From a phage, in the sequence record PV357172.2: a stretch of 64,000 nucleotides of DNA. One strand, written 5' to 3'. The position numbers and the translations under genes were made by a program. Every line of letters starts with the position of its first letter. Positions within the stretch are counted from its first letter, which is position 1. Shown piece after piece: positions 15,471 through 45,168 of this stretch. Under the pieces are notes generated by a model. That model was not told the DNA's origin and searched no databases. It worked only from the letters and a program-made list of their open reading frames with translations.

Positions 15471-15923
15471 TTACTGGATTGATTCCCTACCGTATAATTG
15501 ACCTCTAAACATCTTGGCCATAGAACATGCAACCTCATAGTTATCATATGTTCCTTTAACTATACGTTTACGGTTAATAGTAAATACTACTTGCCAGTTC
15601 TTACTACCAGAAGGGTAAACATGCATTCCTTTCTTATACTTGATATTTCTTAGATTACCGGATACTGTCTGCTCTCTAAGATTTTCAATACGATCATCAC
15701 CTTTTACAGTATTCACATGATCTACTAAATCAGGTAAGTATCCGTGATGCATTAAGAAGATAGCTCTGTGTCGGAGCATAGTTCTACTCCCTAGAGAAAT
15801 ACGGTAATAACCATTTCCCGTTGAAACACAACATTCCTTGCCTGCATTTCTTCCTGTAGTTCTAAATAATTTTCCATCTTCATATCGGAAATTATCTAAA
15901 AGTTCCTGTTGTGTGAGCGACAT
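15471..15923 (-). CDS. HNH homing endonuclease
   Basis: HNH motif HHGYLPDLVDHVNTVKGDDRIENL; start set at ATG 15923 preceded by GGAGG. Confidence 0.7.
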   Translation of the reverse strand: MSLTQQELLDNFRYEDGKLFRTTGRNAGKECCVSTGNGYYRISLGSRTMLRHRAIFLMHHGYLPDLVDHVNTVKGDDRIENLREQTVSGNLRNIKYKKGMHVYPSGSKNWQVVFTINRKRIVKGTYDNYEVACSMAKMFRGQLYGRESIQ

Positions 15924-16062
15924 CTTTACCTCCAATACATATATTATTACATAATCCACCCAATTTGTCAATGACAATTTATTCATACTGTCAATTAACT
16001 GGAAAGATTATATAATAATCCGAGCCAAAATGACTCGGTAGTCAGAGTTCAGCTAATAAAAA

Positions 16063-16455
16063 TCATTCATCATTCAGACCTGGAACATAGATCCCAACAT
16101 GGTTTAACTGTTCTTTAGCTTCTTTGAGAATATCTGGAGTGTACTCCCAAATATCATCTTCCACCTGTAAAAGATGGGGCGAACAACCATCATCAGGCAT
16201 ACGACATATAGCCAAACCACGTGGATGGAACAAAGAGAAATTTAGGGCAACAATTAAACCCATAGCAGACAACTCATTCCAATCCAATTCCCATTCCCTA
16301 GCGTAGCCTGATAGGAAAACACCAATACAGGGATCGTCTATTTGCTGCTCCGGAAAAGTGAAGGAGGCTTGTCTTACCCCCAACCAACGTTGTAGCAGCT
16401 TCTCCGCACGCTTCACCAAACTAGGATCAATCTGACGCCAATATACTTGTTCCAT
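16063..16455 (-). CDS. hypothetical protein, tandem paralog A (130 aa)
   Basis: Shares PCIG...ELD...MGL..ALN..LF.P motifs with adjacent ORF. Confidence 0.5.
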   Translation of the reverse strand: MEQVYWRQIDPSLVKRAEKLLQRWLGVRQASFTFPEQQIDDPCIGVFLSGYAREWELDWNELSAMGLIVALNFSLFHPRGLAICRMPDDGCSPHLLQVEDDIWEYTPDILKEAKEQLNHVGIYVPGLNDE

Positions 16456-16464
16456 TCTGCCTCC

Positions 16465-16893
16465 TTAAGCAGTTAAATCTGGGATCATATACCCGAAACG
16501 TCGAAGTTTCTGAATCCCCTCATTTACTTCTTCCGGTGAATAAGACCAACCATAACGTTCATTAACCTGAAAACCAGGAGATTCACTAGTTTTATAGTTA
16601 ACAACTAGGCGATGCTTAGCAGGCATAAACAGCTTATAATTTAACGCAAAAACTAAGCCCATTTCATCTAACTCTTTCCAGCCTACAATCTCTTCAAGAC
16701 CCTCCTCTACCTGAACAATTAAACCAATACAGGGGGCCTCATCAATATCATCTTTAAAAGCAAAGGAGATTTCATTATTCTCACACCATATTTTCAAGGA
16801 GTTAATAGCCTCATTATACAGGCTAGCTGGGAGAGTACGCCAAAAGTTAATCAAAATTGGATTAGCTTCTTTAGAGAATACATTATTGAACAT
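16465..16893 (-). CDS. hypothetical protein, tandem paralog B (142 aa)
   Basis: Paralog of 16063-16455. Confidence 0.5.
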   Translation of the reverse strand: MFNNVFSKEANPILINFWRTLPASLYNEAINSLKIWCENNEISFAFKDDIDEAPCIGLIVQVEEGLEEIVGWKELDEMGLVFALNYKLFMPAKHRLVVNYKTSESPGFQVNERYGWSYSPEEVNEGIQKLRRFGYMIPDLTA

Positions 16894-16895
16894 AT

Positions 16896-17402
16896 TTACA
16901 CCTTAAATTGTTGTAAGGATTTACACATTTCAAGATCTGGGCTAAATTCTAGCATATAGCTAACAGCTTTTAAATCTTGAAGATTTATCCCAGTCCTACC
17001 GTTGACTATAACCGTTGGATACTGATACATCATAGCACCCGCATCATCAAGCACACACCAATGTTTGAGCTTATGCTTTTCAACGAAACGAAGAACAGAA
17101 TTACCCCTAGATAATCCACCCCCCGTAAAATCCGTTGTACCAAGAAAACGATCGATAAGACCTAATCCGGTCATAATCTGAACGTTCTCCATCTCATTTC
17201 TAACAGAGAACCAAGATGATACCCCAACAATCATTATCGGAGAAGGACGAATAAAATCCTGAAAAGCCTTGAGAAGCGGTTTGAAAACCCAGTCACTTCC
17301 AAAGAAAATCTTTTCATTATCAGGTGCATGATGGTGGGAGATGCTCGAATTGAGCACCCCATCAATATCTAGAAAAATAATTGGAGTATTACTTATTTCC
17401 AT
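16896..17402 (-). CDS. HAD-superfamily hydrolase-like protein (putative phosphatase/nucleotidase)
   Basis: HAD motif I IIFLDIDGVL near N-terminus. Confidence 0.5.
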   Translation of the reverse strand: MEISNTPIIFLDIDGVLNSSISHHHAPDNEKIFFGSDWVFKPLLKAFQDFIRPSPIMIVGVSSWFSVRNEMENVQIMTGLGLIDRFLGTTDFTGGGLSRGNSVLRFVEKHKLKHWCVLDDAGAMMYQYPTVIVNGRTGINLQDLKAVSYMLEFSPDLEMCKSLQQFKV

Positions 17403-17571
17403 TTTTGTTCCTTTCTAAGAACGTATCATACTCAACCGTATCAACATATATGACGCCATAGTCATCGGATTTATAGTCCATTTCCCATAACTCACATCGA
17501 TAGCACCAACTACCATCTGCCCATACAAATATATCATCGGGATGTGTATATACAGATTTAACTATGGACAT
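17389..17571 (-). CDS. hypothetical protein (60 aa)
   Basis: ORF track; overlaps flanking genes by 14 nt. Confidence 0.35.
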   Translation of the reverse strand: MSIVKSVYTHPDDIFVWADGSWCYRCELWEMDYKSDDYGVIYVDTVEYDTFLERNKNGNK

Positions 17572-18394
17572 ATCTGTTTACCTTGCTTCTCGACACATAA
17601 GGTCTACCCTCTAAATGAGCTTCTACACGAGCAATAAAATCAGGATCACTGAAAGCATCTACCGCACCTTTACTCCAGTAAGGGATACCACGTTCTTCCA
17701 GCTGGTACATCTCACTACGAGTCATACCTTGATAGCCCGGTTCTGCCGCTAGGCCACTATCATAGTAGTTAACAACCATAAGTTTCGCAGCAGTCAAATT
17801 AAGAACAGGAAATAATTCCCAGTAGAAGTTAATTACTTGGTTAGAGCAACCAACCACAATGATCATATCTTGACTGGTAATACCATCAAAAACATTATAC
17901 ATTTCTGCGTATGCAGGAGCATGTTCTCCAAAGAAGATTACATTAGGTTTAACCCATTTATAATCATCTGGATCAATAGAATTATACCCTACATCAATAA
18001 TCCGTTTATTGCTACTATTGTAGCTATCAGCTACAACAACCTCTTTTAAATATCCGTGAATGTGCAGAATGTCACTATGTGGAACACCAGCACGCTCAAT
18101 AAGGTCATCAACGTTGGTAGTCAAGTTTACTACTTGACCTGGGTATTGTTTATACCATTCACCAATACGCAAATGCGCAAGATTGGGTTCAACAGTTTTT
18201 AGCTCTTCACGACGCTTGTTGTAAAACATATGGGTTTTATGATAAAAATTACCACGAAAGGCATGAATATTACATACTTCTTCTAGATCATAATCATCCC
18301 ACAATGCTTTACCACTAGCAGTATCAGTACGGAAGGCTCGTACACCACTTTCAACGCTCAAACCTGCACCGCTAATAATAATTAATCTACGCAC
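17558..18394 (-). CDS. Sir2-family (sirtuin-like) NAD-binding protein
   Basis: Sirtuin motifs ISGAGLSVESGVRAFR, TTNVDDLIERAG, HIHGYL, FFGE, VVGCS; no obvious Cys4 zinc ribbon. Confidence 0.65.
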   Translation of the reverse strand: MRRLIIISGAGLSVESGVRAFRTDTASGKALWDDYDLEEVCNIHAFRGNFYHKTHMFYNKRREELKTVEPNLAHLRIGEWYKQYPGQVVNLTTNVDDLIERAGVPHSDILHIHGYLKEVVVADSYNSSNKRIIDVGYNSIDPDDYKWVKPNVIFFGEHAPAYAEMYNVFDGITSQDMIIVVGCSNQVINFYWELFPVLNLTAAKLMVVNYYDSGLAAEPGYQGMTRSEMYQLEERGIPYWSKGAVDAFSDPDFIARVEAHLEGRPYVSRSKVNRYVHS

Positions 18395-18769: not shown

Positions 18770-19051
18770 TTAGTTCTGTACTGTAAATTCATTCTTATCA
18801 CAGTGAGCGTAATAATACCCATACATGCGATAAATTTTCACAGCCTTAGTAGACCCCTTCGATTCTTCATAATCAATCCAGAGCCACTTGTCTTTACCTA
18901 CATAATGTACCCGAAACTTCTTAACTTTCTTATCATTCCATGTTGCAACAACACGACGATAATCAAATCCACCCAACCAATCTAGAGCCTTACGTTCTTC
19001 ACTAGGCCCTCCAAGATGGGAGACATCTACTTTAGGAAGCAACTCGCTCAT
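18770..19051 (-). CDS. hypothetical protein (93 aa)
   Basis: ORF track; promoter-like module upstream at 19052-19150 on minus strand. Confidence 0.45.
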   Translation of the reverse strand: MSELLPKVDVSHLGGPSEERKALDWLGGFDYRRVVATWNDKKVKKFRVHYVGKDKWLWIDYEESKGSTKAVKIYRMYGYYYAHCDKNEFTVQN

Positions 19052-19150
19052 AGCTTTCTCCTCTCAAATTTATAAATCAATTATACATAAATTTTTGGCT
19101 GAAAGCAAATAAAATAAAAGCCAGGTCGACTAGCAACCTGGCTGATTAGC

Positions 19151-20977
19151 TTACTTAAGATTTAAGTGTTTTACTCTACCAAGTACTTCTTTTTGTTTCC
19201 CAGAATTGAAAGGCCTACTGCCCGGGGATCCCAGGTACCCGCAAACCCTACGTGTAACCTCTATTTCTTCAGATCCACAACTCGGACATACAAACCCACG
19301 TTCAGAGGCAACAGATTCACCCATATACCCACAGTTGAAGCACTCATCAATTGGTATATTAACACCAATATAATGACTACATTCTAGTCCCTTATCTACT
19401 ACGTATTCAAGAGCTTTATGGAACTTTTTCATTTGTGGTAGTTCCACAAACGATATATTACCACCATTAGCTATTTTGGTGAAATGAGCTTCATACTCAA
19501 ATTTAGTATCCGGAGCTACCTTCTCCCTTACGTCCAAATGATGACTATTAGTGAGATAGCCTTTATCTGTTAGCCAAGAATACTCAGGGAACCTACGTTC
19601 CAGTAGTTTATTAAAGCGATTACATAGAGACTCACTAGGAGTAGCATACAAGCTAAACCCAAGATTAGTCTCATTAGCTTTAACTTCGCAACGATTTTTT
19701 AGGTGAGTAAGAACTTCCTCTGTAAATTCAATACAGTCCCTATGAGTCTGCGGTAAACTAAACATTATTTGGCACATCTCATAGACCCCAATATACCCAA
19801 GAGATACAGAAGATCTACCCTCAAAAATTGGCCATACATACTCTTCCCTATCTAAACGCACACCAAAACCACCGTGCATATAAAGAATAGGGGCTTGTTT
19901 AGCCTTCACTTTCTTAAGTCTATCCAAGAAAAAATCATGAGCTTCAAAAGCCTCATCCACATATTTGTCCAGAATATCCCAGAAATCTTCAAAAACCCCA
20001 TCTGCCTCAGCAGCAACCATAGGTAGATTAATAGACACTACACCTAAATTATTGCGCCCTGCAATTTCTCCGGAGGGGATAGCAGATAAAAAGCTACGAC
20101 AACCCATAGGGGCTTTAAAATCACCAGTAACAGCTATAACTTTCTCATAGCTTAAATAGTCTGGGTACATACGGGTAGCAGAACACTCAAGTGCTAGCTG
20201 TTTTATATCATAGTTAGGATCGCCTGGATTTTTATTTAACCCTTCTTTAACTGAGAATACTAGTTTAGGGAAGATAGGGGTTGACTCGGCAGCACCTAAA
20301 CCTTTAATACGATTTTGGAGGATGGCTTTCTGAATCATCCTTTCCTCCCACTCCTGACCTAATCCAAAGCCAAGCGTAACAAAAGGGGTCTGCCCGTTAG
20401 AGTTAAATAATGAATTAGTTTCATACTCTAGAGCTTGGAATGCATCATAACACTCTTTTTCAGTAAGCTCAGTAGCATACACAGCAGCTTTTCTTTCATC
20501 CTTGAGCCAACGTAGCCCACGACCCAGATGTTTATTGTAAGACTTTCTGACATACGGGGCTAGAACCTCGTCGATACGATCAATAGAGGTACCACCATAC
20601 TGAGCACCAGATACTTGGGCAATAATCTGAGCAGTGATTGCACATGCAGTAGTTATGGATTTAGGAGTTTCAATATTTGCATTACCGATTTTAGTACCAT
20701 TCTTCAGCATGCCCCCCAGATCTACTAAACAACAGTTGGTGTACCCTTGTGCTCTGTAGTCCATGTCATGAATGTGTATTTTACCTAGATTATGCGCGTC
20801 TAACAGGTGTTTAGGTAATTCTTGCGATACTAAATACTTGTTAATTTCCCCAGCTAATAAGTCCCTTTGAGTATGGAACATCTCACTAGGCTTATTAGCA
20901 TTATTATGTTGTAAGTCTTTATCCGCAGTTAGAGTGAGCAGACCTTTGCAATTTTCAATTAATTCATTCTCTGTCAT
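19151..20977 (-). CDS. nrdD: anaerobic ribonucleoside-triphosphate reductase (class III)
   Basis: 608-aa ORF; C-terminal glycyl radical motif RVCGYLGS; Cys cluster CFNCGY...CPSCG. Confidence 0.85.
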   Translation of the reverse strand: MTENELIENCKGLLTLTADKDLQHNNANKPSEMFHTQRDLLAGEINKYLVSQELPKHLLDAHNLGKIHIHDMDYRAQGYTNCCLVDLGGMLKNGTKIGNANIETPKSITTACAITAQIIAQVSGAQYGGTSIDRIDEVLAPYVRKSYNKHLGRGLRWLKDERKAAVYATELTEKECYDAFQALEYETNSLFNSNGQTPFVTLGFGLGQEWEERMIQKAILQNRIKGLGAAESTPIFPKLVFSVKEGLNKNPGDPNYDIKQLALECSATRMYPDYLSYEKVIAVTGDFKAPMGCRSFLSAIPSGEIAGRNNLGVVSINLPMVAAEADGVFEDFWDILDKYVDEAFEAHDFFLDRLKKVKAKQAPILYMHGGFGVRLDREEYVWPIFEGRSSVSLGYIGVYEMCQIMFSLPQTHRDCIEFTEEVLTHLKNRCEVKANETNLGFSLYATPSESLCNRFNKLLERRFPEYSWLTDKGYLTNSHHLDVREKVAPDTKFEYEAHFTKIANGGNISFVELPQMKKFHKALEYVVDKGLECSHYIGVNIPIDECFNCGYMGESVASERGFVCPSCGSEEIEVTRRVCGYLGSPGSRPFNSGKQKEVLGRVKHLNLK

Positions 20978-21635
20978 TGATTATTTCCTCGATAAACCTT
21001 GCTACTATTTCTGGCTCAATACTAAAAAATTCTGTAGCACCATCAAAATCTTTGTACTGACAATTATATTCCTTAAACTGTAAATGGGCCTCTCTTTCAA
21101 TACGCATAGCTTTTGATCTATCTGAAAAGCTATATTCCTTAAATATTTTTAAATCATGTATGTTAGAAGAAGTTTTAATATCTCTGAGTCTATCTTTAGT
21201 TCTGCTAGACACCCCTATTTTGGTTCCCACACTACTTATTAAAATATATACGTTAGTAGGATAATTATCCTTCTCTAATAAACATATAGGACAACCAGAA
21301 TTATGATTTCTAACACTATCAAGTGTAGACTCCCATCTATGATTATTCTCACAGCTGAACATAATTTTACTCTTAGAATTGATGTATTTACCTTCCATCT
21401 TTATTCCACGAGCAGCTAAGGATTCATTTACCTCTTTAAGATCTAAAGTACGACTAGCACAATAAGGGCAACCTCTCCCACCTTTTACATTATCTACTCT
21501 AGCCTCCCAGATATGTCCATTAGAGCACTTAAATACAGCATTGGATTTAGCTGATATATACGTGCTTAGCATAATTATTCCTCTGGGAGCAAGTGTTAAG
21601 TTCACATCTTCTGTAGTTATTTTCTTTCTTACCAT
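20964..21635 (-). CDS. T5orf172/GIY-YIG-like domain protein with tandem zinc-ribbon repeats
   Basis: Two N-terminal repeats (FKCSNGHIWEARVDNVKGGRGCPYC / FSCENNHRWESTLDSVRNHNSGCPIC); C-terminal VYILISSVGTKIGVS...R...E GIY-YIG-like core. Confidence 0.5.
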   Translation of the reverse strand: MVRKKITTEDVNLTLAPRGIIMLSTYISAKSNAVFKCSNGHIWEARVDNVKGGRGCPYCASRTLDLKEVNESLAARGIKMEGKYINSKSKIMFSCENNHRWESTLDSVRNHNSGCPICLLEKDNYPTNVYILISSVGTKIGVSSRTKDRLRDIKTSSNIHDLKIFKEYSFSDRSKAMRIEREAHLQFKEYNCQYKDFDGATEFFSIEPEIVARFIEEIINDRE

Positions 21636-21953
21636 TAAATTCTCCTTAATTCACATATTATACACAATTCCACCCCATAAGTCAACTACATTTTTCTAAT
21701 ACTATTTGACTTTTGATTTTTATCAATTTTTATTGATGCTATACAGCATAATATCTTTACATATAAATAAATGATTATCTAGTATCATATTTTTACCTTT
21801 ATAAGCAAGTAAATTTTTTACTTAAAAGCAATATCATAGGTTTATTTAAAATTATACTTGCTTTTTGCTGTAAACCTTGTTATAATATATTTGTAAGTTG
21901 ATAAACAAGATCTCTTTGTTGATCCTCTGTTAGAAGCGAAGTACACTATAGGA
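21636..21953. promoter_or_regulatory. divergent promoter region between leftward and rightward gene blocks
   Basis: AT-rich 318 bp; plus-strand TTGCTT...TGTTATAAT upstream of 21963 and reverse-complement TTGCT/TATAAT elements for the minus strand. Confidence 0.55.
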
Positions 21954-25492: not shown

Positions 25493-25990
25493 ATGAAATT
25501 AACACAGAGTAGATTAAAAGAGCTAATCTCCTATGACCCTGAAACTGGCGAATTTACCTGGCTCCCAAGAAAAACTTTAGCAAAGCATTTATGGAATGCT
25601 AAAGCAGGAACCTACGATAAATTAGGGTATCTTCGTATAAAAGTTGAAGGAGTTCAATATTTAGCTCATCGCCTAGCCTTCTTGTATATGACTGGAGAAA
25701 TACCGGAAGGAAAAATCGACCATAAAGATACTAATCCGTCTAATTGTGCCTGGGATAATCTCCGTGAAGCCACGAGTTCTCAAAATTCTATGAACTCGTG
25801 TGCAAGATCGGATAACCAGCTTGGAATGAAAAATATTCGTGTAAAAGGCACTTCATTTCAGGTTAGGATAGGCAAAGACGGCAAATCTTATACAAAAACT
25901 TTTAAAACCCTAGAAGAAGCTATAGAATGGAGAGACACCAAACTACTAGAACTTCATGGGGACTTTGCAAACAACGGAGAAGCTAAATGA
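25493..25990 (+). CDS. HNH homing endonuclease (between nrdA and nrdB)
   Basis: HNH motif GEIPEGKIDHKDTNPSNCAWDNL; own promoter-like element upstream. Confidence 0.7.
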   Translation: MKLTQSRLKELISYDPETGEFTWLPRKTLAKHLWNAKAGTYDKLGYLRIKVEGVQYLAHRLAFLYMTGEIPEGKIDHKDTNPSNCAWDNLREATSSQNSMNSCARSDNQLGMKNIRVKGTSFQVRIGKDGKSYTKTFKTLEEAIEWRDTKLLELHGDFANNGEAK

Positions 25991-36052: not shown

Positions 36053-36127
36053 CGGGGTGTAGTCTAAGGGAGAGGCAGGAGTCTTCTAAATTCCTTTATG
36101 CAGGTTCGAATCCTGTCACCTCGGCCA
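36053..36127 (+). tRNA. tRNA-Arg (anticodon TCT)
   Basis: Hand-folded cloverleaf: acceptor CGGGGTG/CACCTCG, anticodon loop CTTCTAA, T-arm GCAGG-TTCGAAT-CCTGT, encoded CCA. Confidence 0.65.
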
Positions 36128-36161
36128 ATTTTATTAACTGTAGCTAAAACAAAGGAAATAT

Positions 36162-37109
36162 ATGTTTAATACTAAAAATATGAAAGAACTGACTTCTGAG
36201 CAGAAAGTAATTCGTACTATTAAACGTTGGGGTATTGGTGCTGTAGTTGGTTTAGCAGGTTTAATCCTAGCTTTTAATTCATATACTGTTGTTCAAGACG
36301 GTACTGTTAAAACCCAGACTTTCCTGGGTAAAGTTGACCCTAGCCCAGTATTACCCGGCTTTCATATTGTAAATCCTTTTGCTTCTTTCGATACTTTTAG
36401 TACTAAAGATATTGCCCTAAAATTAGATAAACTTCAGGTTCCTAGCCAGGATAAGTTTAAATCCACTGTTGACCTGACTGTTATGTTGCAGTTTGATGGT
36501 TCTAAGGCACCAATTAACCGTATTAACGCAGGTACTCAGGATCAGGCGTTAGACAAGTATGTAACTGAAAAATTACTGTCTACTATTCGTGAGTTTGGTA
36601 AGTCTGTACCTAAAGCACAAGATTTGTTTGATGCTAAAATTCAGGCTCAATTGCAAACTGCAATTCAACAGGAAGTTGAAGAGTATGCACGCCCATATGG
36701 TTACACAGTTAAGCAGGTATTCCTTCAGGATATTACTTTGCCACCGGTAATCATGGAACAGGTACAGAATACCAAAGTTCGTGAAGAGCAAGTTAATGCT
36801 GCGAAAGCTGAACTGGCCCGCGTTGAACAAGAAGCGCAGCAAAAGGTTAAACAAGCAGAAGCAGACCGTGAAGCTCGCAACAACCAAGCTATTGCTAATG
36901 AACGTGACGCAGATGCTAAACTGTACGCAGCTAAGAAAGAAGCTGAAGCTAACGCCGCATTGCAACGTACCATTACTCCTGAGATGATTCGCTGGAAGCA
37001 ACTGGAAGTTGAAATGCTTCGTGCTGAAAAATACCAAGGTGGTGTACCGCAAACAGTAGTGGGAACTGGTTACGATGGCCAGATGATCATGGATATGCGT
37101 AATAAGTAA
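36162..37109 (+). CDS. SPFH/band-7 (prohibitin/HflK-like) membrane protein
   Basis: N-terminal TM segment, SPFH-like core, Ala/Glu/Gln-rich coiled-coil tail. Confidence 0.55.
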   Translation: MFNTKNMKELTSEQKVIRTIKRWGIGAVVGLAGLILAFNSYTVVQDGTVKTQTFLGKVDPSPVLPGFHIVNPFASFDTFSTKDIALKLDKLQVPSQDKFKSTVDLTVMLQFDGSKAPINRINAGTQDQALDKYVTEKLLSTIREFGKSVPKAQDLFDAKIQAQLQTAIQQEVEEYARPYGYTVKQVFLQDITLPPVIMEQVQNTKVREEQVNAAKAELARVEQEAQQKVKQAEADREARNNQAIANERDADAKLYAAKKEAEANAALQRTITPEMIRWKQLEVEMLRAEKYQGGVPQTVVGTGYDGQMIMDMRNK

Positions 37110-37145
37110 TATCCGCATGTAATCTCTGAAGTAAGCCCTGTGTTC

Positions 37146-37175
37146 CCTGGAGAGCGCAGGGCTTTTCTGTATTTA
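37146..37175 (+). terminator. rho-independent terminator
   Basis: Hairpin CCCTG-GAGAGCG-CAGGG followed by CTTTTCTGTATTT. Confidence 0.55.
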
Positions 37176-37299
37176 AGGCAAAAGAAAAAGCCCATAAGTT
37201 ATTCAACTAAGGTCTTTAGTATTTAATTCTTTAGAATCATATAATATTATTGCAGCAACAACGTGCTAACCTTAAGTGCCCTGCAATTTTCCTCTAAAA

Positions 37300-37350
37300 A
37301 GTTAAAAAATTCGATTGCTTGAATGCTAAATTCTCTGTATAATATATTTA
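37300..37350 (+). promoter_or_regulatory. sigma70-like strong early promoter
   Basis: TTGCTT at 37315-37320, 17-nt spacer, TGTATAAT ending at 37343. Confidence 0.6.
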
Positions 37351-37373
37351 TAAATTTGAGAGAGGAATCAAAT

Positions 37374-38429
37374 ATGATTAAGACTGGTCTAGTAATTGGT
37401 AAGTTCGCACCATTAACGCGTGGTCATATTAACCTAATAAACACAGCAGCAACTATGTGTGAACGAGTTATTGTTGTAGTTAGTCATGATAATCGTTGGC
37501 TGGATAAGCAGAACACACGTGATCAGGAAGTATTACAGTTAAAGAATCGACTTCGTTGGTTAGAACAAACTTACGCGGATATTGAGCACATTTCGGTAGA
37601 GTACATTATTGAAGATGATATTCCTGAATATCCGAATGGTTGGCCGGAATATGCTAGAATCCTTAATGAAAATTACGGACATTTGCCTGAGATCACCGTT
37701 TTCTCTAGCGAACTAGACTATGATGCAGAATATAAGAAATATCTGCCGAAGTTTGGTCATTATATTGTAGATTCTGATCGGACTCGTGTTCCAATCTCAG
37801 CTACAATGATTCGTAATGATCTTATGAAGTATTGGGAGTTTCTTCCTAGCTTAGTTCGTAAAGATTACGTGCGTAAGGTTGTAATCATTGGGACTGAAAG
37901 CTCGGGAAAGACTACTTTAACAAAATACCTTGCGAAGCTATACAACACTTCGTGGGTAGAAGAATATGGCCGAACGTATTGTGAAGTTGATCTAGTTGGT
38001 AACGAAAATCTACTTACCAGTGAAGATTACAGTAAAATTGCGTTCAGACACAAAGAGCTAGAGTTTGAAGCAGAACGTACTGCAAATAAGATCATGTTTG
38101 TGGATACAAATGCTTTTATTACTGAGTTCTACCACAGACTTTATGAACATAGTAAGAACCCTGTGGTTACAGCAATTGCAAAAGTAGAACATTACGATTT
38201 AGTAATTGTTCTAGCGCCTACTGTCAAGTGGGTAGATGATGATTTACGTATTAACTCCGATCGTTCAATTACTTCTGAACTGTTCGAGCAGATGAAGAAA
38301 GAATTTCCAAATCAGTTCCCTGAAGGGCGTACTGTTTACATCGACTCTCCGGACTACAAAGTTCGTATGGACGAAGCAGTAAACGCAGTAGACTGGCTGA
38401 TTCATCACTTTAACGTTGGAGAGTTTTAA
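37374..38429 (+). CDS. NadR-like bifunctional NMN adenylyltransferase / ribosylnicotinamide kinase
   Basis: N-terminal nucleotidyltransferase motif GKFAPLTRGHINLI; C-terminal P-loop IIGTESSGKTTL. Confidence 0.65.
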   Translation: MIKTGLVIGKFAPLTRGHINLINTAATMCERVIVVVSHDNRWLDKQNTRDQEVLQLKNRLRWLEQTYADIEHISVEYIIEDDIPEYPNGWPEYARILNENYGHLPEITVFSSELDYDAEYKKYLPKFGHYIVDSDRTRVPISATMIRNDLMKYWEFLPSLVRKDYVRKVVIIGTESSGKTTLTKYLAKLYNTSWVEEYGRTYCEVDLVGNENLLTSEDYSKIAFRHKELEFEAERTANKIMFVDTNAFITEFYHRLYEHSKNPVVTAIAKVEHYDLVIVLAPTVKWVDDDLRINSDRSITSELFEQMKKEFPNQFPEGRTVYIDSPDYKVRMDEAVNAVDWLIHHFNVGEF

Positions 38430-38430
38430 T

Positions 38431-39108
38431 ATGACTAACTATCTCGTAAATGACTTTAAAAACTGGAAACCTCTGGAATATCTGTGGCTGCTCATAGCGG
38501 TTGTCTTCATTAGTTTAGCAAACTATAATGGTACAGCTCTAGATTGGGCTACTGCAATAACCAATGTGGTTTGTGTTATTCTGGTTGCAAAAGGACGTGT
38601 TTCCAACTATATTTGGGGCTTAGTGGGTGTTCTTACATATGGTATTACAGCTTTAAACGCAGATCTTTATGGTAACGCTGCACTAAACCTGCTATACTAC
38701 GTTCCTATGCAGTTTTATGGAATGTACTTATGGCATAAAAATAAACCAAGTAATCTGCCAGACGTTCCAACTAAGGTTCTGACTAAAGCTCAGGCTTTAT
38801 TAACTCTTGGGATTCTAGCAGTAGCTACTCTAGGCTATGGCAGCTTCCTCGCTACCACAGCAGATCCGTTCCCAATGCTCGATGCATTTACTGCGGTTGG
38901 TAGTGTAATTGCTATGTGGCTTATGGTCAAGCAGTATGCTGAACAATGGCTAATCTGGATTGCCATTAATATTGGTACTGTATACATTTGGTTTGTAACT
39001 GCTCAGTCTACAGGTGCTTCTTATGCAATCCTAGCAATGTGGCTGGTATTCTTTGGTAACTCTGTACTTGGAGCCTATAAAGGGTACTTTGTACGCGTTA
39101 ACAAATAA
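38431..39108 (+). CDS. PnuC-like nicotinamide riboside transporter
   Basis: Multi-TM protein immediately downstream of NadR-like gene; ATG at 38431 after GGAGAG. Confidence 0.55.
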   Translation: MTNYLVNDFKNWKPLEYLWLLIAVVFISLANYNGTALDWATAITNVVCVILVAKGRVSNYIWGLVGVLTYGITALNADLYGNAALNLLYYVPMQFYGMYLWHKNKPSNLPDVPTKVLTKAQALLTLGILAVATLGYGSFLATTADPFPMLDAFTAVGSVIAMWLMVKQYAEQWLIWIAINIGTVYIWFVTAQSTGASYAILAMWLVFFGNSVLGAYKGYFVRVNK

Positions 39109-39116
39109 AATAGTTA

Positions 39117-39150
39117 TAGCCCTCAAAGCGAGGGCTATTATCCAGAAAAT
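39117..39150 (+). terminator. rho-independent terminator (weak U-tract)
   Basis: Hairpin AGCCCTC-AAAGC-GAGGGCT followed by ATTATCC. Confidence 0.4.
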
Positions 39151-39151
39151 T

Positions 39152-39192
39152 TCACTTGCTAAATGCCGAGATTTTCTGTATAATATATTTAT
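39152..39192 (+). promoter_or_regulatory. sigma70-like promoter driving tRNA transcription
   Basis: TTGCTA at 39156-39161, 17-nt spacer, TGTATAAT ending at 39184; tRNA-Ser begins about 15 nt downstream. Confidence 0.6.
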
Positions 39193-39198
39193 AAATTC

Positions 39199-39290
39199 GG
39201 AAGATTAACCCTAATTGGTAAGGGAGCATCTTGCTAAGTTGCCAGTAGCTGTGGAAACACGGTGTATCGGTTCAAGTCCGATATCTTCCT
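39199..39290 (+). tRNA. tRNA-Ser (anticodon GCT), long variable arm
   Basis: Perfect acceptor GGAAGAT/ATCTTCC, anticodon loop TTGCTAA, variable-arm hairpin, T-arm ATCGG-TTCAAGT-CCGAT, encoded CCA. Confidence 0.7.
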
Positions 39291-39298
39291 CCAAATTT

Positions 39299-39373
39299 GG
39301 TTCTCAAGCTCATTTGGTATGAGCCGTCGCCTCATAAGCGAAAGGTAGGTAGGTTCGAATCCTCCGGGAGCCA
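39299..39373 (+). tRNA. tRNA with CAT anticodon (Met or Ile2)
   Basis: Acceptor GGTTCTC/GGGAGCC with G-U pairs, D-stem GCTC/GAGC, anticodon loop CTCATAA, T-loop TTCGAAT, encoded CCA. Confidence 0.65.
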
Positions 39374-39393
39374 CCAGATAACTAGGAGACTTT

Positions 39394-39582
39394 ATGTCAC
39401 GCTTTCACGAAATTAAGCAAGAACTGGAAGAACTCGCCTGTCCTGAATGCTTTGGGACAGGTGAATGGAATGATGCTGAACCCGGGGATACGCGGTTTAA
39501 CACTTACGTTTGCACTCACTGTGAAGGTACTGGTGTAAACCCTCTTTACACTATTTCTCTTTTTGTAGGGGTTGCTAAATAA
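39394..39582 (+). CDS. small zinc-ribbon protein (62 aa)
   Basis: CPECFGTGEW...CTHCEGTG DnaJ-like Cys motifs. Confidence 0.45.
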   Translation: MSRFHEIKQELEELACPECFGTGEWNDAEPGDTRFNTYVCTHCEGTGVNPLYTISLFVGVAK

Positions 39583-39588
39583 TGCACT

Positions 39589-39936
39589 TTGAAGATGATG
39601 AAAAAAGAAGCGTTCTACACTGTCCCAGCAATTAATCTGCTCGGTACTGTACTATTTCAGATTAAGTTCTACCTGCGAGACGACTACACTGAAGTGGTAA
39701 ACGCTATTGTACCTGAGTTCTTCGTAAATAATTTCCAAAAGGACTTTAAGTTCTTTATTGATGATGTTTACGATGGTGTGGTTGATCCGGCAGTAGCTCC
39801 AGCTATATACAATGTATTTAATTCTCTGCCAGATCTAGATTTTGATCTAGGACTTATTGAGTCTGGTGAGATTATCTGGGCACTTAATGTTCCAGTGACT
39901 GGATTCCCTGGTTGGCTGCAAGGTTACGAACTCTAA
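39589..39936 (+). CDS. hypothetical protein (115 aa)
   Basis: ORF track. Confidence 0.45.
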   Translation: MKMMKKEAFYTVPAINLLGTVLFQIKFYLRDDYTEVVNAIVPEFFVNNFQKDFKFFIDDVYDGVVDPAVAPAIYNVFNSLPDLDFDLGLIESGEIIWALNVPVTGFPGWLQGYEL

Positions 39937-39944
39937 CAAAATTT

Positions 39945-40027
39945 GGATCTGTGGTGGAATTGGCAATACACACCATGCTTAAAACGTGGCGCTTAAATGA
40001 TTGAGGGTTCGAGCCCCTCCAGATCCA
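39945..40027 (+). tRNA. tRNA-Leu (anticodon TAA), long variable arm
   Basis: Perfect acceptor GGATCTG/CAGATCC, anticodon arm CCATG-CTTAAAA-CGTGG, T-arm GAGGG-TTCGAGC-CCCTC, encoded CCA. Confidence 0.7.
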
Positions 40028-40182
40028 CCAAATTAAGGAAGTAAAAATGAAATCTATTAAGAAAGCACTGCGTAAATTTATGTATTGTCGTTTTCATAGC
40101 ATCAAGGCTTCAACTAATGGTACTACTTACGATCGCTATGATCCTAAGTTTGGCTTACATTCTAAATAACTGGAGAAAACAA

Positions 40183-40389
40183 ATGGCTAATCCTGAAATT
40201 ACGGCACAACGCTTTATGCTGAAAGGAATTATTGCTGAAGCAGGCATGACAGAAGAAGTTGCAGATTTTCAAAAGCAATTCCTCAATATTCTCACTCAAG
40301 CCAAAGAGCTAGGAGAGAAAGAACATGGCGCGGCTATTATGGCAATCACATTGGTTGGGCTTGATCTGGCTGAAGAATCAGGAGTTTAA
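40183..40389 (+). CDS. hypothetical protein (about 68 aa)
   Basis: ATG at 40183 after GGAGAAAACAA; track ORF starts upstream. Confidence 0.45.
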   Translation: MANPEITAQRFMLKGIIAEAGMTEEVADFQKQFLNILTQAKELGEKEHGAAIMAITLVGLDLAEESGV

Positions 40390-40478
40390 CTCCTCCAAGC
40401 AGAAATTTTAAAAATGTACTTGCTTTTTACTTAAGATTTCTGCTATAATAGTTATATAAGTTGATGAGAGGAATCAGA

Positions 40479-40754
40479 ATGTTAAAACGTTTTGCAGCAA
40501 CTGGTATTGAAAGCTCAGTATGTAAATCCTGGGGTGGTTGGGAAGGTGAGATCGAGTGGCTTTATTTCTACAATGTAGAACTTCTTCCAGAGATCAAAGC
40601 TCAATGTATTGAGGCTGGTATGGCTCCTGATGCTACGGCTGATGTTGAAATCAGCATGAATAAGCTAGAGGGTCGAGTAGTCACTGTTACTGATGAAGGT
40701 GAAGAGGTATTCGAACTTCCATTCACTTTGAAAGTCACTCCTTCATTTGATTAA
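40479..40754 (+). CDS. hypothetical protein (about 91 aa)
   Basis: ATG at 40479 after promoter module and GAGAGG. Confidence 0.5.
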   Translation: MLKRFAATGIESSVCKSWGGWEGEIEWLYFYNVELLPEIKAQCIEAGMAPDATADVEISMNKLEGRVVTVTDEGEEVFELPFTLKVTPSFD

Positions 40755-40882
40755 CTGATACAGCACTGAGCAAGTTCTTTAAAATTTGACTTGCTCAGTA
40801 CCTTAAAACTTGGTATAATAGTTATCTAATTTGGAAACATATTTAAAAGTATTCAAATACTAGTTTAAACACTTTTAAATGT

Positions 40883-40966
40883 ACATCGTTGGCAGAATGG
40901 CTATTGTAGCGGTCTGTAAATCCGTGCCCTTCGGGATTGGTGGTTCGAATCTTACACGGCCCGCCA
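40883..40966 (+). tRNA. tRNA-Tyr-like element (GTA anticodon loop), possibly degenerate
   Basis: D-arm and anticodon arm (loop CTGTAAA) fold, variable-arm hairpin GCCC-TTC-GGG, TTCGAAT T-loop, CCA present; T-stem and acceptor pair poorly in my reading. Confidence 0.3.
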
Positions 40967-41068
40967 AATTCTGTGTAGAGTTAAGTAAACCGGTAGCCAA
41001 CCAGCTATCATTGCTGACATCGAATTCAGCCACAGATACCATTTTCATTAATAACTGAGGAAATAGAT

Positions 41069-41254
41069 ATGACAACTCGTGCAATTGCTCGACTAGAAGC
41101 TGATCGTGATAATCTGATTAATAATATTAAGGTTCGTGGTAATATTATTAAGGCTCTGAAAGCTGAACTTCTTGAAGAACTTCAAGGTCAAGTAGAGCGT
41201 CGTGAAGCTCTAAAAGAGGTTGAGGAAGCTATCGAAAAACTCAAAGCTGAGTAA
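41069..41254 (+). CDS. small coiled-coil protein (61 aa)
   Basis: ORF track; GAGGAAATAGAT RBS. Confidence 0.45.
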   Translation: MTTRAIARLEADRDNLINNIKVRGNIIKALKAELLEELQGQVERREALKEVEEAIEKLKAE

Positions 41255-41257
41255 ATT

Positions 41258-41839
41258 ATGCACGGAATATCCTTACCAATTCCAGGGTTTGAGGAGTACT
41301 TAGTAAGTTTGGATGGGTTAGTATTTAGTATCAAATCAAACAAAATACTAACCCCAATAACCAGTAATTACGGATACTTATCTATACGTCTCCATAAAAA
41401 TGGTCAACAGAGAAATACCGGTGTACATAGGATTTTAGCATGTGCATTTAAGAAATTACCAAGTCTAGACTCTGAACTAGAAGTTGACCATATTAACACA
41501 GACATTACTTATTGGGGTCTTAATAACTTACAAGTGCTCACAAAAGAGCAGCATCTAGAAAAGACTTTAAAAGATAAAGGATTTAGTAAACTAAACCATG
41601 ATAATTGTTGTAAGGATTGTGGTAAAGCTATTTCTTTAAAAGCTGAAAAATGTCAGGAGTGCTCTTCACATAAACCAAAAGATATCTCTATAACTAAAGA
41701 AATAATCGAGGTTACAGTAAGAGAGCTAGGCTGGTCAGGTGCAGGGAGAAAGTTAAGTTATTCAGATAATGGGTTGCGTAAAAGATACACTTCTTTAGGA
41801 GGCAATCCTAAAGAACTTAAAAAGTTAAAGGTACTATAG
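41258..41839 (+). CDS. HNH endonuclease with zinc finger and C-terminal HTH
   Basis: HNH region ELEVDHINTDITYWGLNNLQVLTKEQH; CKDCG...CQEC zinc finger; paralog of 43929-44513. Confidence 0.65.
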   Translation: MHGISLPIPGFEEYLVSLDGLVFSIKSNKILTPITSNYGYLSIRLHKNGQQRNTGVHRILACAFKKLPSLDSELEVDHINTDITYWGLNNLQVLTKEQHLEKTLKDKGFSKLNHDNCCKDCGKAISLKAEKCQECSSHKPKDISITKEIIEVTVRELGWSGAGRKLSYSDNGLRKRYTSLGGNPKELKKLKVL

Positions 41840-41901
41840 TCTAACGGTTAGGATACTCCCCTGTCACGGGAGAGGTAGGGTTTCGATTACCCTTAGTACC
41901 G
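41830..41901 (+). tRNA. tRNA-Asp (anticodon GTC)
   Basis: Perfect acceptor GGTACTA/TAGTACC, anticodon arm CTCCC-CTGTCAC-GGGAG, T-arm AGGGT-TTCGATT-ACCCT, CCA; 5' end overlaps HNH stop codon. Confidence 0.7.
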
Positions 41902-41910
41902 CCAAATTAT

Positions 41911-41984
41911 ACATCCATAGCTCAATTGGTTAGAGCTACCGCCTCTTAAGCGGTAGGTTCTAGGTTCAAGTCCTAGTGGGTGTA
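41911..41984 (+). tRNA. tRNA-Lys (anticodon CTT)
   Basis: Acceptor ACATCCA/TGGGTGT, D-stem GCTC/GAGC, anticodon arm ACCGC-CTCTTAA-GCGGT, T-arm CTAGG-TTCAAGT-CCTAG, CCA. Confidence 0.7.
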
Positions 41985-41987
41985 CCA

Positions 41988-42200
41988 AACATCAGAGCAG
42001 CGTGATGTACTGCAAAGACCCAAAGTCCGGGGTGGACTTCTTGATTCAAAGGAGCAGGCACTAATTATCATTCTAGCGTGGTGGAGAGGGGACACCAGCT
42101 TGCCGAGGGTAGAAGCTCGTTCGATTCGAGTGAAAGAATGGTTCTCGTAAATCCGCACAAGTGATAGCAGGTTCAAGTCCTGCCTAGATTGACTTATTAT
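41988..42200 (+). ncRNA. structured noncoding segment with two orphan T-arm-like hairpins (pseudo-tRNAs or small RNA)
   Basis: GCTCG-TTCGATT-CGAGT and GCAGG-TTCAAGT-CCTGC T-arm-like elements with no pairing acceptor stems found; no credible ORF. Confidence 0.3.
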
Positions 42201-42271
42201 GCGTTCGTAGTTAAAAGGTATAATTTTTGGTTGCCAACCAGAAGTTGAGGGTTCGATTCCCTCCGACCGCA
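42201..42271 (+). tRNA. tRNA-Gly (anticodon GCC)
   Basis: Acceptor GCGTTCG/CGACCGC (one mismatch), anticodon arm TTTGG-TTGCCAA-CCAGA, T-arm GAGGG-TTCGATT-CCCTC, CCA. Confidence 0.65.
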
Positions 42272-42587
42272 CCAAATTTAGGTTTCTGCTTCCTAGAGAA
42301 CGGACTCCTAGATAAACAAGGCGATGAGTTTCCGGCCGGTTCTAGTCGCTGAAAATCCTCCCGACCAGGTAGGTGTAAGTAAATGAAAGTTTACTTATTG
42401 AGTAGGTTCCGATAGACCGGCGGGTCTATTCTGGCATTTAAGAGAGGTCTCGCAAACTTCTTTGTCAGCCGTGGGGTTGGTAGCCTCCAGGTGGCCTACA
42501 CAATAAGTAAATTTATTAAAAATTCATTTGCTATTCTGCTTAATTCTCTGTATAATATATTTTATAAAGTGAGTTAACAAAAATTAA

Positions 42588-42660
42588 CAGTGCGTAGCGC
42601 AGTTGGTAGCGTGGGAGCCTTGGGTGCTTCGGGTCGCAGGTTCGAGTCCTGCCGCACTGA
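42588..42660 (+). tRNA. tRNA-Pro (anticodon TGG)
   Basis: Perfect acceptor CAGTGCG/CGCACTG, anticodon arm GGAGC-CTTGGGT-GCTTC, T-arm GCAGG-TTCGAGT-CCTGC, CCA; directly after promoter module. Confidence 0.7.
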
Positions 42661-42669
42661 CCAAACAAT

Positions 42670-42744
42670 TGCGGGTTAGATCTCTGGTAGAGATCGCTAG
42701 TCTCATAAGCTAGAAAGAGGTAGGTTCGATTCCTGCACCCGCTT
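42670..42744 (+). tRNA. tRNA with CAT anticodon (Met/fMet or Ile2)
   Basis: Anticodon loop CTCATAA, T-arm GTAGG-TTCGATT-CCTGC, CCA; position 1-72 appears unpaired (U-U) in my fold. Confidence 0.6.
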
Positions 42745-42767
42745 CCATTTTAATAGAGGATTTCGAA

Positions 42768-42931
42768 ATGAAAGTATTTCGATTAGTAGTAAGTGACAAA
42801 CGGTTAGGTAAGAATACATCAAAATCCTTACTTGCTCATTATGGTAAAAATTGGGATGAAGTAATGGCAGAGTTTAATACTAATCACCCTTACTTGAAAG
42901 TTCACTCTATTAAGGAAGTTTATGCTTATTA
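42768..42931 (+). CDS. small protein (about 54 aa)
   Basis: Below track threshold; ATG at 42768 after AGAGGA; overlaps start of next gene. Confidence 0.35.
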
Positions 42932-43395: not shown

Positions 43396-43460
43396 CTCAA
43401 CTGGATAAGAGTACCGGACCTTTAATCCGTCAGTTCTGGGTTCGAATCCCAGGCAATCCA
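43386..43460 (+). tRNA. tRNA-Lys (anticodon TTT)
   Basis: Perfect acceptor GGATTGC/GCAATCC, anticodon loop CCTTTAA, T-arm CTGGG-TTCGAAT-CCCAG, CCA; 5' end overlaps last codons of upstream CDS. Confidence 0.65.
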
Positions 43461-43819: not shown

Positions 43820-43827
43820 CCAAATTT

Positions 43828-43909: not shown

Positions 43910-43928
43910 CCAACTTATAGGGTAATGT

Positions 43929-44590: not shown

Positions 44591-44605
44591 CCAAACAATT
44601 TATAT

Positions 44606-45140: not shown

Positions 45141-45168
45141 CCAAATTAACTTAAATAGGAAATAAAAT

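What the first reader, a model, noticed from the sequence alone, without database searches (positions are those of the whole stretch)
20964..21635. GIY-YIG/T5orf172-like domain proteins, one fused to tandem zinc ribbons next to nrdD
Two proteins (20964-21635 and 42922-43395) carry a GIY-YIG-like core (VYIL..KIG / YVIG..YKIGMT with downstream R and E). The first also has two repeated Cys4 zinc-ribbon modules and sits where an NrdG activase might be expected beside nrdD; no NrdG-like radical SAM CxxxCxxC motif was found in the window. Either the host activase is used, or NrdD activation is unconventional.
Basis: partly seen in the sequence, partly recalled or inferred. Interest (0 to 1): 0.45.

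Follow-up and report, generated by a model that had tools for sequence, protein, structure and literature searches.

The report
Homing endonuclease gene beside phage nrdD
The gene next to the anaerobic ribonucleotide reductase of this T5-like phage is an ordinary, already described kind of selfish "homing endonuclease" gene (zinc-finger DNA-binding modules plus a T5orf172/GIY-YIG nuclease domain), not a replacement for the missing reductase activator, which the phage most likely borrows from its host.

Summary

The slot upstream of nrdD is polymorphic among close relatives:
- empty in T5 and Shin27
- a 3-module allele in Shivani
- a deletion remnant lacking the catalytic core in Kenya-K44
- the 2-module allele here

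The gene also lies at the edge of a mosaic segment carrying a divergent nrdD allele. This is the behaviour of a free-standing homing endonuclease gene. Barth et al. 2023 described the class, including zinc-finger repeats, abundance in T5-like phages and location near RNR genes.

No NrdG exists in the window or in the whole VAH1 genome. nrdD without nrdG is already documented for T5 and many other phages, so host NrdG is the parsimonious activator. The finding is real but known, and the link to NrdD activation is not supported.

The parts
21657..21685 (-). Near-consensus sigma-70 promoter (TTGACT-17 nt-TATAAT) that drives the endonuclease gene and nrdD as one unit
   Evidence: It matches 11 of 12 consensus positions and is the best site in the region. 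The sequence can be read. T5, Shivani and K44 each have a promoter at the analogous position.
21453..21635 (-). Zinc module 1 of P1 (residues 1-61). It is a helix plus beta-hairpin treble-clef finger with C37, H41, C56 and C59
   Evidence: Pfam DUF4379 matches in two stretches, the best at residues 30-61. AF2 pLDDT is 73-92. The ligand residues are invariant.
21276..21452 (-). Zinc module 2 of P1 (residues 62-120), a repeat of module 1 with C95, H99, C115 and C118. It matches the CapR homology domain
   Evidence: Pfam CapR matches residues 80-118. The AF2 secondary structure repeats that of module 1.
20964..21275 (-). T5orf172 / GIY-YIG-fold nuclease domain of P1 (residues 121-223, plus the stop codon). 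Conserved residues are Y130, K139-I-G141, R149, E180, H184 and E202. The last 14 nt overlap nrdD, and the nrdD ribosome-binding site GAGGA lies inside this coding sequence
19151..20977 (-). nrdD, the class III ribonucleotide reductase (608 aa), with an intact C-terminal zinc ribbon and the glycyl-radical motif RVCGYLG. It is a divergent allele relative to T5
   Evidence: Pfam NRDD scores 1.4e-157. NCBIfam NF006732 scores 794 bits against a cut-off of 657. It is 57% aa identical to T5 NrdD and 52% to E. coli NrdD. Only 51 phage records carry a NrdD at 95% identity or more.
19119..19143 (-). Intrinsic terminator that closes the endonuclease-nrdD unit
   Evidence: Ten-pair stem followed by a T-run. 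The same feature is annotated in VAH1.
21749..21769 (.). Left recombination boundary. Beyond it, on the phoH side, the window is 94-98% identical to T5, Shivani and K44. Inside it, similarity is lost
   Evidence: Pairwise blastn breakpoints and the four-way alignment.
21077..21078 (.). Inner boundary inside the endonuclease gene (codon ~186). From here through nrdD the window is 94-96% identical to the Shivani and K44 alleles. Upstream, the two endonuclease alleles share only ~46% aa identity
42922..43395 (+). Second T5orf172/MUG113 protein (157 aa) in the tRNA gene region. The nuclease-like domain spans residues ~68-150 (Y73, Y84-K-I-G87, R95, E123). The N-terminal ~65 residues match no known family
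   Evidence: Pfam. PHROG 5032 scores 2.9e-51 with unknown function. The gene lies between tRNA-Met 42670-42747 and tRNA-Lys 43386-43463. It is patchy among relatives: 62 of 513 records cover 80% or more.

Best explanation
ORF 20964-21635 is a free-standing homing-endonuclease-type gene of the T5orf172 branch of the GIY-YIG superfamily. Two 'beads-on-a-string' CHCC zinc fingers (DUF4379/CapR type) would supply DNA target recognition, and the C-terminal T5orf172 domain would supply cleavage.

The gene is inserted between the nrdD promoter and nrdD, so it is transcribed with nrdD. Its 3' end carries the nrdD ribosome-binding site.

By analogy with characterised relatives, the protein would cut the allele that lacks it in a co-infecting T5-like phage. 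Likely targets are the T5-type nrdD or the nrdD-phoH intergenic region. Recombinational repair would then copy the endonuclease gene and linked flanking sequence, here a divergent nrdD allele, into the recipient. Where selection for mobility lapses, the gene decays by deletion.

ORF 42922-43395 is a second, smaller member of the same nuclease family in the tRNA region, which is also rich in homing endonuclease genes.

Neither protein has anything to do with activating NrdD. The phage NrdD is most likely activated by the host's own NrdG radical-SAM activase.

Shown: the domain content, the fold, the conserved residues, the allelic series, the mosaic boundaries, and the absence of NrdG.

Inferred: nuclease activity, the target, homing, and the use of host NrdG.
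For: Domains and fold:
- Pfam T5orf172, MUG113, DUF4379 (two stretches) and CapR all score above their cut-offs.
- PHROG 681 'endonuclease' scores 1e-49.
- The AF2 model has pLDDT 82.6 and shows three separate domains.
- The family's Tyr, KIG, Arg, Glu and His are conserved in four diverged paralogues.

Experimental precedent:
- A T5orf172 protein, ICP1 Odn/Gp88, is an experimentally shown site-directed nuclease. It is killed by mutating the conserved Glu (PMC8263062).

Allelic series at one site:
- T5 and Shin27 are empty, with the promoter directly before nrdD.
- Shivani has a 287-aa allele with three zinc modules.
- Kenya-K44 has a 67-codon remnant that lost the start codon and the Tyr/KIG/Arg core but kept the promoter and the nrdD RBS.
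- The 2-module allele occurs at 90% identity or more in only 21 records.

Mosaicism and composition:
- Flanks are 89-94% identical to T5, while the segment carrying the endonuclease gene and nrdD is 66-69% identical or unalignable.
- Window-type NrdD occurs in 51 records, against about 415 records with a NrdD 60-80% identical to it, a band that includes the T5-type alleles seen in the sampled rows.
- GC is lower in the endonuclease gene (31-35%) than in its neighbours.

Family context:
- Paralogues sit next to the T5 terminase gene, and four HNH endonuclease genes lie in the same window.
- Barth et al. 2023 describe exactly this class. They report T5orf172 homing endonuclease genes with repeated CapR-type zinc fingers, abundant in T5-like phages. 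In their survey 33% lie in RNR neighbourhoods, and the genes sit at boundaries of genetic exchange (PMC10448857).

NrdG:
- None is found in the window or in the whole VAH1 genome.
- Across the phage collection there are 2748 records with NrdD and 2273 with NrdG.
- RNRdb lists 30 phage NrdD against 21 NrdG (PMC2795772).
- The phage NrdD's glycyl-radical C-terminus is nearly identical to that of E. coli.
- The phage also carries a GrcA-like glycyl-radical protein and, again, no activase.
Against: - No cleavage, target site or homing has been shown for this protein or for any T5-like T5orf172 gene. I found no such experiment in the papers read.
- The second 'YIG' tyrosine of canonical GIY-YIG enzymes is a lysine in P1 (the KIG motif). 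The equivalence of R149 and E180 to I-TevI R27 and E75 rests on family alignment and topology, not on a residue-level structural superposition.
- The linked nrdD allele is too diverged (66% nt) to be explained by simple co-conversion from a T5-type genome. The cassette may have arrived by ordinary illegitimate or homologous exchange, with the endonuclease as a passenger.
- Activation of the phage NrdD by host NrdG has not been tested.
Confidence: 0.78

Rival explanations
1. The protein is a domesticated derivative that no longer homes. It would be a sequence-specific DNA-binding regulator of the divergent nrdD/phoH promoter region, as I-TevI autorepresses and as satellite CapR represses a capsid promoter. 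Alternatively it would be a weapon nuclease aimed at competing phages or satellites, like ICP1 Odn.
For: - CapR-type zinc modules have been co-opted as a repressor, and a T5orf172 nuclease (Odn) as an anti-satellite weapon (PMC10448857; PMC8263062).
- The gene is the first cistron after a strong promoter and is translationally tied to nrdD.
- The ORF is intact with all conserved residues.
- Weak PADLOC hits to candidate defence family PDC-S57.
Against: - The slot is empty or decayed in most relatives that keep the same promoter architecture and nrdD, so no conserved regulatory role is needed.
- No satellite or target is known for T5-like phages.
- The PADLOC hits cover only the shared nuclease domain.
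Confidence: 0.14
2. The ORF is an inactive relic. It would be an intact-looking but functionally dead endonuclease gene, kept only because its 3' end provides the nrdD ribosome-binding site and its 5' flank provides the promoter.
For: - The K44-type remnants keep exactly the promoter and the last 67 codons. This shows that those parts are what selection retains.
- The allele is rare, with 21 records.
Against: The full 223-codon frame is open, and every family-conserved residue is present. Copies in other phages are 94-97% identical without frameshifts.
Confidence: 0.06
3. The zinc-module/T5orf172 protein is an unconventional partner or activator of the phage NrdD that replaces NrdG.
For: Only position supports this. 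The gene is adjacent to and co-transcribed with nrdD, it is Cys-rich, and no NrdG is encoded.
Against: - There is no radical-SAM motif or homology. The metal sites are CX3H...CX2C treble clefs.
- The fold of the C-terminal domain is GIY-YIG nuclease.
- The gene is absent or truncated next to intact nrdD genes.
- Paralogues occur at the terminase gene and at other loci.
Confidence: 0.02

Closest known systems
T5orf172 homing endonuclease genes with CapR/DUF723/DUF4397 zinc-finger repeats (ICP1 and T5-like phages; Barth, Dunham & Seed 2023, PMC10448857)
   Same: - Same Pfam nuclease domain.
- Same repeated zinc-finger 'beads on a string' N-terminus, with variable repeat number.
- Same host lineage (T5-like phages).
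- Same preference for ribonucleotide-reductase neighbourhoods.
- Same position at boundaries of recombinational mosaics.
   Different: The zinc modules here score best with DUF4379, plus CapR. The specific allelic series at the nrdD promoter (empty, 2-module, 3-module, deletion remnant) and the linkage to a minority nrdD allele were worked out here. As far as I read that paper, it does not describe them.
ICP1 Odn (Gp88), an origin-directed T5orf172 nuclease (PMC8263062)
   Same: T5orf172 domain with the conserved catalytic Arg and Glu. The modular design pairs an N-terminal DNA-binding domain with a C-terminal nuclease.
   Different: Odn uses a RepA_N domain and targets a satellite's replication origin. 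P1 uses zinc fingers, and its target is unknown. Odn's activity is experimentally shown; P1's is not.
T4 free-standing GIY-YIG/HNH homing endonucleases at nrd genes (Seg and Mob proteins, e.g. mobC next to nrdG; I-TevI)
   Same: They are free-standing, intergenic, co-transcribed with neighbours, clustered at nucleotide-metabolism genes, and polymorphic between related phages (PMC2988022 listed).
   Different: T4 enzymes carry canonical GIY-YIG or HNH motifs, with helix-turn-helix, NUMOD or single zinc-finger DNA-binding parts. P1 belongs to the T5orf172 branch (KIG instead of YIG), which T4 lacks (PMC10448857).
NrdG, the class III RNR activase (radical SAM)
   Same: Only the genomic neighbourhood (next to nrdD) and the presence of cysteine-based metal sites.
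   Different: P1 has no CX3CX2C motif, no sequence or fold similarity to NrdG, and is not conserved together with nrdD.

Membership tests
T5orf172 (PF10544) / GIY-YIG superfamily | Profile match above the curated threshold | tested here: met
   P1 scores 41.6 bits and P2 53.8 bits against a cut-off of 20. MUG113 scores 39.8 and 69.9 bits against a cut-off of 22.3.
T5orf172 (PF10544) / GIY-YIG superfamily | GIY-YIG alpha/beta fold (beta1-beta2-alpha1-beta3-alpha2) | tested here: met
T5orf172 (PF10544) / GIY-YIG superfamily | Conserved catalytic Arg and Glu, plus the first-strand Tyr | tested here: met
   P1 has Y130, R149 and E180; P2 has Y73, R95 and E123. These are conserved across P1, P2, Shivani gp141 and T5p150. 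Their equivalence to I-TevI R27 and E75 is inferred from the family alignment and PMC8263062.
T5orf172 (PF10544) / GIY-YIG superfamily | Canonical second Tyr ('YIG') | tested here: not met
   P1 has K139-I-G and P2 has Y84-K-I-G. This is the hallmark of the T5orf172 branch rather than a disqualification from the superfamily.
T5orf172 (PF10544) / GIY-YIG superfamily | Endonuclease activity | not testable with these tools
   Needs a biochemical assay. It has been shown only for the relative Odn (PMC8263062).
Free-standing homing endonuclease gene | Presence/absence polymorphism at one locus among close relatives with conserved flanks | tested here: met
   Empty in T5 and Shin27, occupied here and in Shivani, and a remnant in K44.
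Free-standing homing endonuclease gene | Modular DNA-binding part plus nuclease part, with shuffling | tested here: met
   The zinc modules number two here and three in Shivani. The same modules are fused to a DUF559/Vsr-type nuclease in P0006.
Free-standing homing endonuclease gene | Cleavage of the endonuclease-less allele and gene conversion in mixed infection | not testable with these tools
   Requires cleavage mapping and phage crosses.
DUF4379 / CapR treble-clef zinc finger | Profile match and invariant metal ligands | tested here: met
NrdG (class III RNR activase, radical SAM) | CX3CX2C [4Fe-4S]/SAM cluster motif | tested here: not met
   Absent from P1 and P2. A six-frame scan finds it in only one long frame, 47654-47968, which is an unrelated 104-aa ORF.
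NrdG (class III RNR activase, radical SAM) | Sequence similarity to NrdG / Radical_SAM profiles | tested here: not met
   Pfam gives no radical-SAM family for P1. The NrdG profile's best hit in the window and in whole VAH1 is E 0.2, against a control of 142 bits.
NrdG (class III RNR activase, radical SAM) | Co-conservation with nrdD | tested here: not met
   Intact nrdD occurs without the gene in T5 and Shin27, and with only a remnant in K44.

The most novel reading that the evidence does not exclude
The endonuclease gene and the minority nrdD allele form one mobile cassette. The endonuclease would cut T5-type genomes in or just upstream of nrdD, and repair would replace the recipient's promoter-proximal nrdD with the donor's diverged allele, which is cleavage-immune. 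A selfish nuclease would then be actively driving allelic replacement of a core nucleotide-metabolism enzyme across T5-like phages. In addition, its 3' end would have become an obligatory part of nrdD translation initiation.
Probability: 0.3. Interest if true: 0.35.

Novelty: already known. Interest (0 to 1): 0.15.

Why it matters
It matters little beyond correct annotation.

- The gene should be named a T5orf172-family (GIY-YIG superfamily) putative homing endonuclease, not a candidate NrdD cofactor.
- The locus is a tidy natural series: empty site, two alleles with different numbers of zinc modules, and a deletion remnant that keeps only the promoter and the neighbour's ribosome-binding site. 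That series could serve as a model for the life cycle of T5orf172 endonuclease genes and for how they mark recombination boundaries.
- It also illustrates that T5-like phages carry two glycyl-radical proteins (NrdD and a GrcA-like protein) while depending on host radical-SAM activases.

Tried and rejected
- **NrdG hidden elsewhere:** I looked with tblastn, a five-sequence NrdG profile with filters off, and a six-frame CX3CX2C scan over the window and the whole VAH1 genome. Nothing was found.
- **The only long-frame CX3CX2C match:** ORF 47654-47968 has no Pfam family and is only 104 aa, too short for a radical-SAM activase.
- **Best NrdG-like hit:** in both searches this was the 93-aa ORF just downstream of nrdD (E 0.06 and 0.2). 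It has one cysteine, no Pfam or NCBIfam match, and the motif spacing does not fit, so I treated it as chance.
- **PDB sequence search with P1:** no meaningful hit.
- **Single-sequence AlphaFold of P2:** pLDDT 45, unusable, so the N-terminal 65 residues of P2 remain unassigned.
- **NCBIfam:** no model for P1 or P2.
- **PADLOC:** only weak domain-level hits to candidate family PDC-S57.
- **The word-indexed protein search:** only 7 relatives were returned, so the structure alignment was shallow. The exhaustive representative search was not used.
- **Literature on phage T5 together with nrdD and nrdG:** one full-text search for papers mentioning nrdD, nrdG and 'bacteriophage T5' returned no papers.
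Full report
**What the window is.** A 4-kb stretch around the finding is 96% identical to Escherichia phage vB_EcoS_VAH1 (Demerecviridae, Tequintavirus). It matches 446 T5-like phage records. In VAH1 the same ORF is already annotated 'T5orf172 domain protein'. Other records call its relatives 'endonuclease' or 'GIY-YIG nuclease family protein'.

**Checking the observation.** ORF 20964-21635(-) encodes 223 aa (P1), and ORF 42922-43395(+) encodes 157 aa (P2).
- Both match Pfam T5orf172 and MUG113 above the gathering scores.
- P1 also matches DUF4379 ('probable treble clef zinc finger', two stretches) and the CapR homology domain.
- PHROGs places P1 in family 681, 'endonuclease' (1.2e-49).
- The two N-terminal modules are clear repeats of each other and of the three modules in the Shivani homologue.
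- Their metal ligands are Cys-x3-His...Cys-x2-Cys, not four cysteines. C37, H41, W43, C56, P57 and C59 are invariant in the homologue alignment.

**Fold and catalytic residues.** An AlphaFold2 model of P1 was built from an 8-sequence alignment and has mean pLDDT 82.6. It shows two helix/beta-hairpin zinc modules and a C-terminal beta-beta-alpha-beta-alpha domain.
- Across four diverged paralogues, the positions that stay conserved are the first-strand Tyr (Y130), Lys-Ile/Val-Gly (139-141), Arg149, Glu180, His184 and Glu202.
- For the T5orf172 nuclease Odn of phage ICP1, the authors note that the catalytic Arg and Glu are retained. They show that purified protein cuts its target in vitro and that mutating the Glu abolishes cutting (PMC8263062).
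- Nuclease activity of P1 itself is inferred, not shown.

**Anatomy of the locus.**
- A near-consensus promoter (TTGACT-17-TATAAT, 21685-21657) precedes P1.
- P1's stop lies 14 nt inside nrdD (20977-19151).
- The nrdD Shine-Dalgarno sequence GAGGA is within P1's last codons.
- A strong terminator follows nrdD at 19143-19119.
- So P1 and nrdD form one transcription unit, with P1 wedged between the promoter and nrdD.
- P1's GC content (31-35%) is lower than that of its neighbours (about 38-44%).

**The slot is polymorphic.**
- In T5 and in Shin27, the promoter is followed directly by nrdD. This is an empty site.
- Shivani carries a 287-aa allele with three zinc modules.
- Kenya-K44 carries a 67-codon remnant that is a deletion derivative of the Shivani allele. 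It has lost the start codon and the Tyr/KIG/Arg core but keeps the promoter and the nrdD ribosome-binding site.
- The 2-module allele of the window is present at 90% identity or more in only 21 records.
- Window and Shivani alleles are about 96% identical from codon ~186 through nrdD but only ~46% identical (aa) upstream. Recombination has therefore swapped the DNA-binding part.

**The gene sits at a mosaic boundary.**
- Against T5, the flanks are 89-94% identical, and similarity stops at window 21769.
- nrdD itself is only 66-69% identical at the nucleotide level and 57% at the amino-acid level.
- NrdD at 95% identity or more to the window's occurs in 51 phage records. About 415 records hold a NrdD 60-80% identical to it. 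That band includes the T5-type alleles of other T5-like phages seen in the sampled rows.
- The same left boundary is seen against Shin27.
- The endonuclease gene thus marks the edge of an exchanged segment that carries a minority nrdD allele.

**Family context.**
- Relatives with the same architecture occur in 421 phage records, at several loci per genome. One is T5p150, next to the terminase large subunit gene.
- The window also holds four HNH endonuclease genes, one of them between nrdA and nrdB.
- P2 lies among tRNA genes and is itself patchy among relatives.

**Published description of the class.** Barth, Dunham and Seed (2023) describe precisely this class:
- T5orf172 homing endonuclease genes are abundant in T5-like phages.
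- 87% carry CapR, DUF723 or DUF4397 zinc fingers, often repeated.
- Repeat number changes by recombination.
- 33% lie in ribonucleotide-reductase neighbourhoods.
- They lie at boundaries of genetic exchange (PMC10448857).

**The NrdG question.** No NrdG is encoded in the window.
- tblastn with E. coli NrdG gives nothing better than E 0.06.
- I built a profile from E. coli, T4, Enterococcus-phage, C. difficile-phage and Citrobacter-phage NrdGs. I searched it, with filters off, against every open frame of the window and of the complete VAH1 genome. The best hit was E 0.2, whereas a left-out NrdG scored 142 bits.
- VAH1's annotation lists no activase either.

This is a known state of affairs.
[quoted passage not shown] - RNRdb counts 30 phage NrdD against 21 NrdG (PMC2795772).
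- In the phage collection used here, 2748 records hold NrdD and 2273 hold NrdG. The gap is about the size of the T5-like group. This is a rough comparison only.

The window's NrdD looks functional and host-compatible.
- It passes the NCBIfam equivalog cut-off.
- It keeps the C-terminal zinc ribbon and the RVCGYLG glycyl-radical loop almost exactly as in E. coli NrdD.
- Its hosts, E. coli and Salmonella, encode nrdG next to nrdD (and general knowledge).
- The phage also encodes a GrcA-like glycyl-radical protein (RVSGYAV motif), again without an activase. Reliance on host radical-SAM activases therefore seems to be the lineage's habit.

Host activation of the phage NrdD is an inference; I found no experiment.

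**Why P1 is not an NrdD partner.**
- Its metal sites are treble-clef CHCC fingers.
- Its C-terminal fold is a nuclease.
- It is absent or truncated beside intact nrdD genes.
- Its paralogues sit at unrelated loci.
- In E. coli, nrdG lies downstream of nrdD, not upstream.

**Verdict.** The thing itself is a putative free-standing homing endonuclease gene of an already described class, in a lineage and neighbourhood where that class is known to be common. The proposed link to unconventional NrdD activation is not supported. The only mildly new material is the clean allelic series at this site and the linkage of the endonuclease gene to a divergent nrdD allele. Interest is low.

Noticed in passing
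window 47204-47572 (+): A 122-aa GrcA-like 'autonomous glycyl radical cofactor' with the motif RVSGYAV. NCBIfam TIGR04365 scores 118 bits, below its cut-off of 170. It is annotated as such in VAH1. It is a second glycyl-radical protein in a genome with no radical-SAM activase, so it presumably needs host PflA.
   Followed up: partly
window 47654-47968 (+): A 104-aa ORF immediately after the GrcA-like gene has a Cys cluster, PCICSCWMCGNPRK. This is the only CX3CX2C match in a long open frame of the window. It matches PHROG 4499 (unknown function) and no Pfam family. It is too short for a radical-SAM enzyme, and its function is unknown.
   Followed up: partly
window 18770-19051 (-): A 93-aa ORF directly downstream of nrdD was the top, though insignificant, hit for NrdG in both tblastn (E 0.06, 'GKDKWLWIDY' against 'GKDIWVWTGY') and the NrdG profile (E 0.2). 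It has one cysteine and no family match apart from PHROG 7953. It is present in 250 T5-like records, and T5 itself has a different gene there. Probably chance.
   Followed up: partly
window 15471-15986 (-), 25493-25990 (+), 41258-41839 (+), 43929-44513 (+): Four HNH (HNH_3, one with NUMOD4) homing-endonuclease-type genes. One lies between nrdA and nrdB, and two lie among the tRNA genes. The nrd and tRNA regions are hot spots for selfish nuclease genes.
   Followed up: partly
window 19151-20977 (-): The nrdD here is a minority allele. Only 51 phage records have a NrdD at 95% identity or more. T5's NrdD is 57% identical (574 aa against 608 aa), and Klebsiella T5-like phages have NrdDs about 71% identical. 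The origin of this allele was not traced.
   Followed up: partly
protein P0006 (metagenomic relative): The same DUF4379/CapR zinc modules are fused there to a DUF559/MTES_1575 (Vsr-like) nuclease domain instead of T5orf172. This is an example of shuffling between nuclease types.
   Followed up: no
window 16063-18394 (-): Downstream of the nrdD unit lie a Sir2-family protein (17558-18394), a HAD domain of the 'Swiss Army Knife RNA repair' type (16896-17402) and two DUF7415 proteins (16063-16455, 16465-16893). None of them was examined further.
   Followed up: no
phage records MG065692.1, MG065642.1, OR848495.1: Records labelled Campylobacter phage or Listeria phage carry T5-like sequence at 88-98% identity. 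The host labels in those records look doubtful.
   Followed up: no
window 36053-47020 (+): Nineteen tRNA genes are interspersed with small ORFs and endonuclease genes, as is typical of T5-like phages.
   Followed up: no
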